Shown: positions 4,511 through 4,832 of the stretch, piece after piece
Layout: each line of letters begins with the position of its first letter
How positions within the stretch are numbered: the stretch's first letter is position 1
Virus record (IMG/VR): IMGVR_UViG_2526164631_000021
Source of the DNA: a virus
Taxonomy: Duplodnaviria; Heunggongvirae; Uroviricota; Caudoviricetes
Direction: 5' to 3' (one strand)
Length of the DNA stretch: 14,800 bases
Notes under the pieces: generated by a model
Database searches by the model: none
Told to the model about the DNA's origin: nothing
Seen by the model: the letters and a program-made list of their open reading frames with translations, nothing else
Made by a program: the position numbers and the translations under genes

Positions 4511-4634
4511 GAAACCAGAGCATGCACACACAAAAAAACCGCTTGCCATGCCGCAATCAGTCAGGTTACATTTCCGCTGCACCTCATAAAACGGGTGCCG
4601 GGTTTCGCAGCCTGCTGACTACAAGAGCGCACAA

Positions 4635-4653
4635 CCGCGCCAGCGGTTTTTTT
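4635..4653 (+). terminator. candidate rho-independent terminator
   Basis: CCGCGCCAGCGG followed by a run of seven T, about 125 nt after the stop of the 4211-4510 gene. The stem is short (4 bp, possibly extended by flanking CGCACAA/TTGTGCG). Confidence 0.4.
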
Positions 4654-4665
4654 GTGCGTACTGTA

Positions 4666-4694
4666 TTGCCACGTTTTTTTCGCGTCAGAATTAT
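4666..4694 (+). promoter_or_regulatory. candidate sigma70-like promoter
   Basis: TTGCCA, a 17-nt spacer, then AATTAT, directly after the terminator-like hairpin and upstream of a structured leader to the 4833 gene. Weak consensus match. Confidence 0.25.
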
Positions 4695-4832
4695 GGCGGG
4701 GCGTACGGGGCCGACTTCGGTCGGGCCGGGATCTCTTGTAGCCGGTACTGCGAACCTCGTACGTCTCGCCACCCACAGTTTCGCAGCTCTGGATGGTGAG
4801 TTTTCACAACTTACTACAAGAGGCCACATATC

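What the first reader, a model, noticed from the sequence alone, without database searches (positions are those of the whole stretch)
4511..4832. 322-bp structured non-coding gap within the early region, with a repeated CTACAAGAG motif
No credible ORF occupies this GC-rich gap. It contains a terminator-like hairpin with a T7 run (4635-4653), a possible promoter (4666-4694), a 5-bp stem capped by a UUCG tetraloop (CCGAC-TTCG-GTCGG, ~4711-4724), and three copies of CTACAAGAG (direct at ~4619 and ~4814, inverted at ~4733). This looks like an operon boundary with a structured leader, or a small RNA or regulatory element controlling expression of the replication module.
Basis: seen in the sequence. 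Interest (0 to 1): 0.45.

Follow-up and report, generated by a model that had tools for sequence, protein, structure and literature searches.

The report
P4-type antisense-RNA immunity cassette (IsrK + C4)
The "non-coding gap" holds two known phage small-RNA genes, IsrK/seqA and the C4/CI antisense RNA. The repeated CTACAAGAG motif is the C4 recognition loop plus its two targets, and one target covers the ribosome-binding site of an anti-repressor gene, so this is a known kind of RNA switch in a P2-like prophage.

Summary
CTACAAGAG occurs exactly three times (4619+, 4733-, 4814+) against 0.05 expected by chance. The hairpin with a T-run and the UUCG-capped stem are also present.

The gap is not an anonymous leader. 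Rfam places isrK (RF01394, 4579-4653, 66.7 bits) and C4 antisense RNA (RF01695, 4689-4776, 81.1 bits) there, both above their gathering scores.

The motif trio is a1 / a' / a2 of the classical C4 system. A second trio, TTCGCAG / CUGCGAA / TTCGCAG, is b1 / b' / b2. Site a2 overlaps the Shine-Dalgarno sequence of ORF 4833-5063, a homologue of the phage P4 epsilon derepression protein.

Satellite phage P4's own immunity region gives the same two Rfam hits in the same order. Across 47 specificity variants, and across 10 close relatives, the loop and junction co-vary with both target sites (97.8-100% of cells paired, many changes on both sides).

Most likely mechanism: C4 RNA, processed from read-through of the IsrK terminator, blocks translation of the epsilon-like gene. 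It may also reduce expression of ORF121 and replication gene A by polarity. The IsrK RNA carries a decoy or second target.

This is a new member of a known kind. The public records inspected do not annotate the RNAs. Interest is low to moderate.

The parts
4543..4572 (+). Promoter-like site, TTGCCA-18-TACATT. Its position matches the PLE promoter-like hexamers of P4 (my reading of the P4 sequence) and PisrK of Gifsy-1. The predicted start is about 4579.
   Evidence: Consensus scan. It is identical in P88, P88_4B11 and Shae_phiSM even though their upstream DNA diverges from about 4533. Lambdoid relatives and P4 carry equivalent hexamers at the same place. No transcript data exist.
4579..4653 (+). 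IsrK / seqA-like small RNA. It has two 5' hairpins, a single-stranded linker, and a Rho-independent terminator (4633-4648 plus a T-run).
   Evidence: Rfam RF01394, 66.7 bits against a gathering score of 50. Terminator scan. The same family hits P4's seqA region and all six relatives tested. The hairpins are mostly kept in 16 sequences.
4604..4610 (+). b1 target (UUCGCAG), mostly in the loop of IsrK hairpin 2, complementary to the C4 junction b'.
   Evidence: Helix b1-b' is 100% paired in 10 relatives, with 4 of 7 pairs changed on both sides.
4619..4627 (+). a1 target (CUACAAGAG), in the single-stranded IsrK linker, complementary to the C4 loop a'.
   Evidence: Helix a1-a' is 100% paired in 10 relatives, with 6 of 9 pairs changed on both sides. 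Duplex energy is -13.4 kcal/mol.
4689..4776 (+). C4 / CI-type antisense RNA. It has a 17-bp outer stem (4694-4710 with 4755-4771), hairpin 1 with a UUCG loop (4711-4724), hairpin 2 (4725-4746), and an ACCCA tail.
   Evidence: Rfam RF01695, 81.1 bits against a gathering score of 45. The minimum-free-energy fold equals the family fold, at -47 kcal/mol and z = -4.2. All three stems are 100% paired in 16 sequences, with compensatory changes.
4733..4741 (+). a' recognition sequence (CUCUUGUAG) in the 12-nt loop of hairpin 2.
   Evidence: predicted unpaired.
4748..4754 (+). b' recognition sequence (CUGCGAA) in the single-stranded junction between hairpin 2 and the outer stem.
4780..4786 (+). b2 target (UUCGCAG), starting 4 nt after the end of the C4 Rfam match (9 nt after the outer stem).
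   Evidence: Helix b'-b2 is 100% paired, with 4 of 7 pairs changed on both sides.
4791..4800 (+). Conserved spacer GGAUGGUGAG, complementary to the 3' strand of the C4 outer stem. It may form an alternative helix in the unprocessed transcript.
   Evidence: It is invariant or nearly so in alignments A1 and A2. Other loci, including P4, show matching changes on both sides, but the own-versus-other statistic is weak. Suggestive only.
It overlaps the Shine-Dalgarno sequence AAGAGG (4818-4823) of ORF76.
   Evidence: Helix a'-a2 is 97.8% paired, with 5 of 9 pairs changed on both sides. Duplex energy is -14.2 kcal/mol. In all 38 loci where a downstream ORF was picked, a2 runs into an SD-like sequence and the ATG lies 2-12 nt after a2, 7-12 nt in 37 of them.
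4833..5063 (+). ORF76, a P4-epsilon-like derepression (anti-repressor) protein and the gene directly controlled.
   Evidence: Pfam PF25738 Derepression, 30.1 bits against a cut-off of 27. 30% identity over 66 aa to P4 epsilon, pairwise E = 2e-9. P4 epsilon itself scores 170 bits on PF25738.
5136..8330 (+). ORF121 (5136-5501, unknown function) and replication gene A (5508-8330). Both lie downstream on the same strand and could be affected by polarity.
   Evidence: PHROG 3237. Pfam Phage_GPA, 436.8 bits. 31% identity to P2 gpA. Their control by C4 is inferred only.

Best explanation
The gap is a compact P4/P1-type RNA immunity cassette in a P88-like (Xuanwuvirus, P2-family) prophage of E. coli.

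Transcription. A promoter-like site at 4543-4572 would drive transcription from about 4579. Most transcripts would stop at the IsrK terminator (4633-4653) and give a roughly 75-nt IsrK/seqA-like RNA. Read-through transcripts contain the C4/CI-type RNA (about 4694-4773). By analogy with P1 c4 and P4 CI, this RNA is cut out by RNase P at the base of its tRNA-acceptor-like stem.

Repression. Mature C4 exposes two short recognition sequences: a' (CUCUUGUAG, in a hairpin loop) and b' (CUGCGAA, in a single-stranded junction). They pair with b2 (4780-4786) and a2 (4814-4822) on read-through or early-operon mRNA. Site a2 covers the Shine-Dalgarno sequence of ORF76, a homologue of the P4 epsilon anti-repressor. 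The prophage repressor is 52% identical to P2 C, the protein that epsilon inactivates. C4 therefore keeps the anti-repressor untranslated in the lysogen. The untranslated RNA is then probably subject to Rho-dependent polarity, which would also hold down ORF121 and replication gene A.

The upstream copy. Sites b1 and a1 on IsrK form a second binding site for C4. It acts either as a termination-promoting target on the nascent transcript (P4 model) or as a decoy that titrates C4 and switches the anti-repressor on (Gifsy-1 IsrK model).

Specificity. The a'/b' sequences and their targets are allelic specificity determinants, as in heteroimmunity.

Shown here: the identity of both RNAs, the fold, the complementarity, the co-variation, the overlap with the ribosome-binding site, and the homology of ORF76 to epsilon. 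Inferred: the promoter, processing, repression, polarity, and the role of IsrK.
For: - Rfam hits lie above the gathering scores for both RNAs.
- The P4 immunity region gives the same two hits in the same order. It has a promoter-like site, b1/a1, a terminator, C4, b2/a2 and an SD-ATG at equivalent places.
- The motif occurs 3 times against 0.05 expected.
- In 47 distinct specificity variants from viral contigs, the reverse complement of a locus's own loop or junction is found at fixed offsets upstream and downstream. For loop-downstream, 81% of own pairs match over at least 7 nt against 4.9% of foreign pairs. For junction-upstream the figures are 96% against 3.4%.
- In 10 P88-like sequences the four intermolecular helices are 97.8-100% paired, with 4-6 pairs per helix changed on both sides. 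The structures exceed all 500 shuffles on four of five measures (2 of 500 shuffles reach the fifth) and all slid controls.
- 125 loci share an identical hairpin-1 scaffold but carry 26 a'/b' combinations, and their targets follow.
- a' and b' are predicted unpaired in C4.
- a2 overlaps the SD-like sequence, with the ATG 2-12 nt after a2 in all 38 loci scored, 7-12 nt in 37.
- Among 38 loci, the first ORFs with a Pfam match are mostly anti-repressor families: Derepression 9, Rha 4, Bro-N 3, AntA 2, and P22_AR_N, ANT and KilA-N 1 each.
- ORF76 matches Pfam Derepression and P4 epsilon, and the repressor is 52% identical to P2 C.
- Literature: IsrK and C4 are called seqA and CI RNA in P4 (PMC3632133). 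In Gifsy-1, the C4-position RNA STnc1160 depends on the isrK promoter, and IsrK supplied in trans activates translation of the downstream anti-repressor (PMC4825925). P1/P7 c4 blocks anti-repressor synthesis through complementary sites around the ribosome-binding site (PMC12197685).
Against: - There are no expression data for this locus. The promoter is a 9-of-12 consensus match only.
- IsrK alone does not fold better than shuffled sequence (z = -0.9).
- The Rfam c4-a1b1 model scores only 20.5 bits against a gathering score of 46.7.
- The minimum-free-energy fold of the full read-through transcript pairs b1/a1 with a'/b' in cis and disrupts the C4 fold. Whether free C4 accumulates therefore depends on processing kinetics.
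- ORF76 is only 30% identical to epsilon, and its activity on the resident repressor is untested.
- A Rho-dependent terminator downstream cannot be predicted here.
- The P4 model (termination) and the Gifsy-1 model (activation by IsrK) assign opposite roles to the upstream site. The sequence cannot choose between them.
Confidence: 0.8

Rival explanations
1. The gap encodes a protein. The 205-aa ORF 4522-5139 is annotated as 'transcriptional regulator' or 'ash family protein' in some records. A shorter candidate starts at ATG 4693, in the frame of Gifsy-1 orf45. On this reading the repeats are incidental.
For: - The frame is open in the window and in three relatives.
- It is annotated as a CDS in NC_049391.
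- Pfam Phage_ASH matches aa 16-100 at 23.2 bits.
- The frame starting at the conserved ATG on the C4 5' strand is stop-free in 62 of 73 distinct loci, against 24 and 10 for the other two frames.
- Its stop codon overlaps the ATG of ORF121 as ATGA.
- Translation of orf45 was reported in Gifsy-1 (PMC4825925).
Against: - The Phage_ASH score is below its cut-off of 26, and that family aligns exactly to the translated RNA module in P4 and mEp460.
- There is no third-position excess of substitutions in this frame (16/17/14). Within ORF76 the variable sites fall mostly on position 2 of this frame.
- The variable blocks change as base-paired partners, not as codons.
- P4's 'cI protein' was replaced by the CI RNA in the P4 literature (my knowledge; PMC3632133 calls it CI RNA).
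- No SD-like sequence precedes ATG 4693.
Confidence: 0.05
2. This is a plain operon boundary, as in the first reader's first option. A terminator ends the upstream early genes, a promoter at 4666-4694 restarts transcription, and a structured 5' leader precedes the replication module.
For: Terminator-like and promoter-like consensus matches are present. Replication gene A lies downstream.
Against: - A start about 7 nt after 4694 would fall inside the 17-bp outer stem of an RNA that Rfam scores at 81 bits.
- The -35 element and spacing are deleted in lambdoid homologues and absent in P4, while AUGG at the stem base is kept.
- Co-variation of the loop with sites on both sides is not expected for a passive leader.
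- In Gifsy-1, the RNA at the C4 position depends on the isrK promoter (PMC4825925).
Confidence: 0.05
3. The parts are the same, but the main output is transcription termination that controls replication, as in P4 immunity. C4 pairs with b1/a1 and b2/a2 on the nascent RNA and causes premature termination. ORF76, ORF121 and gene A are then silenced together, and translational occlusion is only the means to that end.
For: - The layout is collinear with P4: promoter-like site, seqA, terminator, CI, seqC, first ORF, epsilon, and then the replication gene.
- ORF76, ORF121 and A are closely spaced on one strand.
- Hershko-Shalev et al. summarise P4 CI as a termination factor that pairs with seqA and seqC (PMC4825925).
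Against: - No terminator was found between a2 and gene A by the intrinsic-terminator scan on the + strand, and Rho sites cannot be tested here.
- P4's kil/eta ORFs, in which I recall termination occurring, are absent here.
- In the lytic cycle, gene A must also be reached from the early promoter.
Confidence: 0.35
4. The cassette serves inter-element conflict rather than self-control. The resident C4 silences incoming P4-like satellites or related phages that share its a'/b' specificity. The epsilon-like protein derepresses rival P2-type prophages.
For: - a'/b' alleles are highly diverse on an otherwise conserved scaffold: 26 combinations in 125 loci.
- The window's allele occurs in 34 E. coli genomes, while 1275 carry the module.
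- P4 carries the homologous module and epsilon.
- Barquist et al. raise a satellite-defence role for IsrK-C4 systems in lambdoid prophages (PMC3632133).
Against: - The only perfect targets in the window are the cassette's own.
- The genomes with the window's allele hold a median of one copy, and the one genome with two carries them on its chromosome and a plasmid record.
- No functional data exist.
Confidence: 0.2

Closest known systems
Satellite phage P4 immunity region (PLE promoter, seqA, CI RNA with seqB, seqC, kil, epsilon ... alpha)
   Same: - The same two Rfam families occur in the same order: isrK at 60.8 bits and C4 at 74.9 bits in P4.
- P4 has a promoter-like site, b1/a1 in the first RNA, an intrinsic terminator, a'/b' in the C4 loop and junction, b2/a2 downstream, and a2 fused to the SD sequence of the first ORF.
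- An epsilon homologue lies downstream, and a replication gene further on.
   Different: - The host element is a full P2-type phage: its repressor is 52% identical to P2 C, and it has a Cox-like gene and gpA. It is not a satellite.
- The kil (and nested eta) ORFs are absent, so a2 sits directly on the epsilon-like gene.
- The spacer between terminator and C4 is about 40 nt here against about 110 nt in P4.
- The downstream replication gene is a gpA nickase, not the alpha primase.
- The a'/b' sequences differ.
Phage P1/P7 immI: c4 antisense RNA - icd - ant
   Same: The RNA family is the same (RF01695). The logic is the same: a'/b' pair with a2/b2 around a ribosome-binding site to prevent anti-repressor synthesis, a1/b1 copies lie upstream, and specificity alleles give heteroimmunity (PMC12197685; Citron and Schuster 1990 as cited there and in PMC7313666).
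   Different: The controlled protein is an epsilon-type derepression protein, not Ant, and there is no icd-like leader ORF. The P1 sequence was not fetched, so the comparison rests on the literature and on the Rfam model.
Gifsy-1 IsrK - orf45/STnc1160 - AnrP locus of Salmonella (PMC4825925)
   Same: An IsrK RNA has its own promoter and a leaky terminator. A stable processed RNA lies downstream and depends on that promoter. The middle of IsrK is complementary to that RNA. An anti-repressor gene lies downstream. The predicted cis-pairing of b1/a1 with a'/b' in the read-through transcript resembles their 'structure A'.
   Different: The Gifsy-1 model treats the C4-position region as a translated orf45, coupled to anrP and activated by IsrK in trans. 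Here the equivalent frame does not stop after 45 codons. The anti-repressor has its own SD sequence, which is covered by a2. The Gifsy-1 sequence was not analysed here.
Lambdoid prophages (mEp460, Stx2a phages, 1720a-02) with IsrK-C4 between cII and a Rha/Ant anti-repressor
   Same: The whole cassette of about 260 nt is about 70% identical. Both Rfam families are present. It sits within the early operon, upstream of an anti-repressor and the replication genes.
   Different: The anti-repressor family differs (Rha/Bro/Ant), an 11-nt deletion lies upstream of C4, and the phage backbone is different.

Membership tests
Rfam RF01695, C4 antisense RNA (P1/P7 c4, P4 CI) | Covariance-model score at or above the gathering score (45 bits), full-length match | tested here: met
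   81.1 bits, model positions 1-87 of 87, at 4689-4776 on the + strand.
Rfam RF01695, C4 antisense RNA (P1/P7 c4, P4 CI) | Long outer stem enclosing two hairpins, supported by compensatory changes | tested here: met
   The minimum-free-energy fold equals the family fold, z = -4.2. The three stems are 100% paired in 16 sequences, and 9 pairs changed on both sides.
Rfam RF01695, C4 antisense RNA (P1/P7 c4, P4 CI) | Exposed a' and b' are complementary to a2/b2 downstream, at the ribosome-binding site of the next ORF | tested here: met
   a' 4733-4741 pairs with a2 4814-4822, which overlaps the SD sequence at 4818-4823. b' 4748-4754 pairs with b2 4780-4786. Co-variation is shown.
Rfam RF01695, C4 antisense RNA (P1/P7 c4, P4 CI) | A second target copy (a1/b1) lies upstream on the same strand | tested here: met
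   b1 at 4604-4610 and a1 at 4619-4627. Both helices are 100% paired, with 4 and 6 pairs changed on both sides.
Rfam RF01695, C4 antisense RNA (P1/P7 c4, P4 CI) | The controlled gene is an anti-repressor | tested here: inconclusive
   ORF76 matches Pfam Derepression at 30.1 bits against a cut-off of 27, and is 30% identical to P4 epsilon. Its activity was not tested.
Rfam RF01695, C4 antisense RNA (P1/P7 c4, P4 CI) | Matured from a longer transcript by RNase P, and acts in trans as an immunity factor | not testable with these tools
   Only consistent features can be cited: the acceptor-like stem followed by ACCCA, and no compatible promoter directly upstream.
Rfam RF01394, isrK (P4 seqA RNA) | Covariance-model score at or above the gathering score (50 bits) | tested here: met
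   66.7 bits, model positions 1-77 of 77, at 4579-4653.
Rfam RF01394, isrK (P4 seqA RNA) | Own promoter and Rho-independent terminator, and located upstream of a C4 RNA | tested here: inconclusive
   The terminator and the position upstream of C4 are met. The promoter is only a conserved 9-of-12 consensus match.
Rfam RF01394, isrK (P4 seqA RNA) | Hfq binding | not testable with these tools
Rfam RF03163, c4-a1b1 motif | Covariance-model score at or above the gathering score (46.7 bits) | tested here: not met
   20.5 bits at 4566-4618. P4's own region scores 44.1 bits, also below the threshold. The a1/b1 function is nevertheless present.
P4-like satellite element | Satellite gene set (alpha primase, sid, psu, delta) and no structural genes of its own | tested here: not met
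   The window carries a repressor 52% identical to P2 C, a Cox-like gene and gpA. The closest records are Xuanwuvirus (Peduoviridae) phages of 33.7-40.3 kb.
Pfam PF25738, Derepression protein family (P4 epsilon) | Score at or above the gathering score (27 bits) | tested here: met
   ORF76 scores 30.1 bits. P4 epsilon scores 170 bits.
Pfam PF10554, Phage_ASH (protein reading of the gap) | Score at or above the gathering score (26 bits), with a coding signature | tested here: not met
   23.2 bits, and no third-position bias.

The most novel reading that the evidence does not exclude
P2-type helper phages of the P88 group carry the same RNA-immunity and epsilon anti-repressor cassette as their satellite P4. 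The rapidly diversifying a'/b' alleles would then form an RNA-level heteroimmunity code, used in conflicts among P2-like prophages, lambdoid prophages and P4-like satellites. A resident C4 would silence any incoming element with a matching allele. A mismatched incomer would express its epsilon-like protein and derepress the resident P2-type prophage. This would also give otherwise non-inducible P2-type phages an anti-repressor route to induction.
Probability: 0.25. Interest if true: 0.55.

Novelty: new member of a known kind. Interest (0 to 1): 0.3.

Why it matters
It explains an unannotated or mis-annotated 322-bp stretch whose close copies (at least about 80% identical) occur in 1275 of 5426 complete E. 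coli genomes. Every public record inspected labels it as nothing, as a 'hypothetical protein', or as a 'transcriptional regulator'.

It shows that a helper-type P2-family phage holds the satellite P4's immunity logic and an epsilon-type anti-repressor next to a P2 C-type repressor. That bears on how P2-like prophages are induced and on helper-satellite cross-talk.

It also flags that a Pfam protein family (Phage_ASH) aligns to the translation of this RNA module. Annotators should know this.

Tried and rejected
- tRNA/tmRNA scan: nothing found.
- A third C4 target at the ORF121 ribosome-binding site (GUAACAAGAGG, a 7-nt match to a'): rejected. That sequence stays constant in relatives whose a' differs.
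- The promoter at 4666-4694: rejected on position and lack of conservation.
- The 205-aa ORF and the two minus-strand ORFs over the gap: no Pfam family above its cut-off and no codon-position signal.
- ORF121 against P4 orf151: no similarity. NCBIfam gave nothing for ORF76 or ORF121.
- RNA cofolding of C4 with its targets shows no a'-a2 or b'-b2 contact; I take this to be because loop-to-linear contacts are pseudoknot-like in the joint fold. Short-segment duplex energies were used instead.
- The own-versus-other test for the 'anti-stem' spacer was weak: 49% against 36% with a helix of at least 8 bp. It is reported only as something noticed.
- Sabbattini et al. 1995 on the P4 target sites is not held in the library. 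P4 details beyond what I read in the sequence rest on PMC4825925, PMC3632133 and my own knowledge.
- P1 itself was not fetched.
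Full report
**1. What is in the sequence**

The stretch 4511-4832 lies between a 99-aa ORF that ends at 4510 and a 76-aa ORF that starts at 4833. CTACAAGAG occurs exactly three times in the 14.8-kb window: 4619-4627 (+), 4733-4741 (-) and 4814-4822 (+). Chance predicts 0.05 matches, and none of 200 shuffles reached three. The hairpin with a T-run (4633-4653), the stem CCGAC-UUCG-GUCGG (4711-4724) and a promoter-like match at 4666-4694 are all present. The gap is only slightly GC-rich, 54.3% against 51.5% for the window.

**2. Identity of the two RNAs**

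A scan of the whole window against Rfam at curated thresholds returned exactly two matches, both inside the gap and on the + strand:
- isrK (RF01394) at 4579-4653, 66.7 bits against a gathering score of 50.
- C4 antisense RNA (RF01695) at 4689-4776, 81.1 bits against a gathering score of 45.

A permissive search added only a sub-threshold c4-a1b1 match of 20.5 bits. No tRNA was found.

C4 alone folds into the family structure: a 17-bp outer stem enclosing a UUCG hairpin and a second hairpin with a 12-nt loop. The energy is -47 kcal/mol and z = -4.2.

**3. The repeated motif explained**

The inverted copy, CUCUUGUAG, is the loop of C4 hairpin 2. This is the a' sequence of the P1/P4 literature. 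The two direct copies are its targets: a1 in the single-stranded linker of IsrK, and a2 immediately upstream of ORF76.

I found a second trio. The single-stranded junction of C4, CUGCGAA (b', 4748-4754), is complementary to UUCGCAG at 4604-4610 (b1, mostly in the loop of IsrK hairpin 2) and at 4780-4786 (b2).

Site a2 overlaps the Shine-Dalgarno sequence AAGAGG (4818-4823), and the ATG lies at 4833. Duplex energies for the short contacts range from -10.5 to -14.2 kcal/mol. Both a' and b' are predicted unpaired in C4.

**4. Evidence from relatives**

*Closest phages.* The nearest records are P88-like Xuanwuvirus phages (Peduoviridae, P2-like) at 86-97% identity. The roughly 260-nt cassette also occurs at about 70% identity in many lambdoid phages, including Stx phages and mEp460. 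There it sits between cII and an anti-repressor, upstream of the replication genes. Rfam finds both families in all six relatives tested.

*Broad survey.* A pattern scan of viral contigs followed by a structural filter gave 65 C4-like RNAs with 47 distinct loop/junction pairs. The reverse complement of each locus's own loop and junction is found upstream and downstream at fixed offsets. Foreign loops and junctions do not match: loop-downstream matches of at least 7 nt occur in 81% of own pairs against 4.9% of foreign pairs, and junction-upstream matches in 96% against 3.4%.

*Close relatives.* In an alignment of 10 P88-like sequences, the scaffold is conserved (22% variable columns) while the six a/b blocks are 57-67% variable. 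The four intermolecular helices are 97.8-100% paired, with 4-6 pairs per helix changed on both sides. They exceed all 500 shuffles on four of five measures (2 of 500 reach the fifth) and all slid controls. P88_4B11, 96% identical overall, has the loop GUUCUUGUGUAG, and both of its targets have changed to CUACACAAG.

*Allele diversity.* A second scan found 125 loci with an identical hairpin-1 scaffold. They carry 19 loops and 9 junctions in 26 combinations, and the targets follow. In complete E. coli genomes the module occurs in 1275 of 5426, but the window's exact a'/b' allele occurs in only 34.

These are allelic specificity determinants, as in P1/P7 heteroimmunity.

**5. What is controlled**

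ORF76 matches Pfam Derepression (PF25738, 30.1 bits against a cut-off of 27). It aligns to P4 epsilon at 30% identity over 66 aa, with a pairwise E-value of 2e-9. Epsilon itself scores 170 bits on that family.

The prophage repressor (1482-1799, minus strand) is 52% identical to P2 C, the protein that epsilon inactivates (PMC8628076 for epsilon's function).

Downstream lie ORF121 (unknown function) and a gpA replication nickase, 31% identical to P2 A.

In all 38 loci where a downstream ORF could be picked, a2 runs into an SD-like sequence and the ATG lies 2-12 nt after a2, 7-12 nt in 37 of them. Among the first ORFs with a Pfam match, most belong to anti-repressor families: Derepression 9, Rha 4, Bro-N 3, AntA 2, and P22_AR_N, ANT and KilA-N 1 each.

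**6. Direct comparison with P4**

The P4 immunity region gives the same two Rfam hits in the same order: isrK at 60.8 bits and C4 at 74.9 bits. Read in sequence, P4 shows the following elements:
- -35 and -10 promoter-like hexamers (TTGCCT, TATAGT), which I take to be PLE
- b1/a1 (GUGAGAA, UUCACAGG)
- a terminator
- CI RNA with a'/b'
- b2/a2, with a2 fused to AGGAGG and an ATG (kil, by my knowledge)
- epsilon
- further on, the alpha primase

The window is therefore a compact version of the P4 arrangement. It lacks kil, so a2 sits directly on the epsilon-like gene, and the downstream replication gene is gpA. Barquist et al. already equate IsrK with seqA and C4 with CI RNA, and they note IsrK-C4 systems in lambdoid prophages (PMC3632133).

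**7. Promoters**

The site TTGCCA-18-TACATT (4543-4572) would start transcription at about 4579, the first base of the IsrK match. It is identical in relatives whose upstream DNA is unrelated; homology begins at about 4533. It has counterparts in the lambdoid phages and in P4.

Its -35 element lies in an 11-nt segment that is deleted in the lambdoid phages. In Gifsy-1, the RNA at the C4 position depends on the isrK promoter (PMC4825925). I therefore infer that C4 is made by read-through of the IsrK terminator followed by processing. By analogy with P1 and P4 the enzyme is RNase P; this step is from my own knowledge and is not tested.

**8. Mechanism**

*Best-supported reading.* C4 pairs through b' and a' with b2 and a2, occludes the ORF76 ribosome-binding site, and keeps the epsilon-like anti-repressor off in the lysogen. 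Untranslated RNA probably also lowers ORF121 and A expression through Rho-dependent polarity, as in the P4 termination model. That step is inferred.

*The upstream site.* The role of b1/a1 is unresolved. In P4, seqA is a second target needed for immunity. In Gifsy-1, short IsrK acts in trans to switch on translation of the downstream anti-repressor (PMC4825925). The minimum-free-energy fold of the read-through transcript pairs b1/a1 with a'/b' in cis, which resembles Gifsy-1 'structure A'.

**9. The protein-coding rival**

A 205-aa ORF spans the gap and stays open in three relatives. It is annotated as a CDS in one RefSeq phage record. It shows no third-position bias.

Its only Pfam match is Phage_ASH at 23.2 bits, below the cut-off of 26. 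The same family aligns to the translated RNA module in P4's obsolete 'cI protein' and in the N-terminal extension of the mEp460 'Rha' protein.

The frame starting at the conserved ATG on the C4 5' strand is unusually stop-free across loci: 62 of 73, against 24 and 10 for the other frames. This matches the frame of Gifsy-1 orf45. I leave this as an open side observation.

**10. Verdict**

The finding is real, and it is a known kind of element: an IsrK/seqA plus C4/CI antisense-RNA immunity cassette. Here it controls an epsilon-type anti-repressor in a P2-family prophage. The RNAs are not annotated in any public record inspected. Novelty: new member of a known kind. Interest: 0.3.

Noticed in passing
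window 4567-4822 (aa 16-100 of ORF 4522-5139); L124:1989-2279; L127:8330-8521: Pfam PF10554 'Phage_ASH' aligns to the conceptual translation of the IsrK-C4-target RNA module. It scores 23.2 bits in the window, 57.4 bits in the N-terminal extension of the mEp460 'Rha' protein, and 59.7 bits in P4's old 'cI gene product'. The protein family may be built on an RNA gene.
   Followed up: partly
window 4693-5139: The frame opening at the conserved ATG on the 5' strand of the C4 outer stem is stop-free over C4 plus 45 nt in 62 of 73 distinct loci, against 24 and 10 for the other frames. It corresponds to the frame of Gifsy-1 orf45. In the window it runs on to a TGA (5137-5139) that overlaps the ATG of ORF121 as ATGA. 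It shows no codon-position bias.
   Followed up: partly
window 4791-4800 versus 4765-4774: The conserved spacer GGAUGGUGAG between b2 and a2 is complementary to the 3' strand of the C4 outer stem. Other loci change on both sides: P4 has GCUAUCGCC/GGCGAUAGC, L021 has AGUUCGCC/GGCGAACU, and L025 has GCCGCUCUCC/GGGGAGCGGU. This may be an alternative helix in the precursor, but the statistic is weak.
   Followed up: partly
window 8407-9366: A ParM/StbA-type plasmid segregation ATPase (Pfam StbA_N 275 bits, ParM_N 230 bits) lies just after gpA. RefSeq annotates a partitioning/stability protein next to it in the identical prophage. This is unusual cargo for an integrated P2-like prophage and may point to a plasmid-like stage.
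   Followed up: no
window 5508-8330: Replication protein gpA is 940 aa here against 761 aa in P2. The alignment covers residues 77-744, so the window protein has about 75 extra residues at the N-terminus and about 120 more than P2 after the aligned region. The extra parts are unexplained.
   Followed up: no
window about 4200-4533; L001 2076-2906; L003 2402-2953: The DNA just upstream of the cassette differs between close relatives. P88 has a serine-protease lipoprotein, Shae_phiSM has a DNA-binding protein, and the window has only the Ead/Ea22-like ORF. Homology resumes at about 4533, just before the -35 element, so the cassette borders a variable cargo (moron) site.
   Followed up: partly
L064 225-303 and 7849-7927; L107 7251-7329 and 9881-9958: Single viral contigs carry two C4 RNAs with different a'/b' specificities. 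One element, or adjacent elements, can therefore hold two independent C4 systems.
   Followed up: no
L128 (E. coli CFSAN018748), positions 1-2900: The prophage carrying the identical 281-bp cassette is integrated next to pheA/pheL. Its integrase lies directly after the Phe leader region.
   Followed up: no
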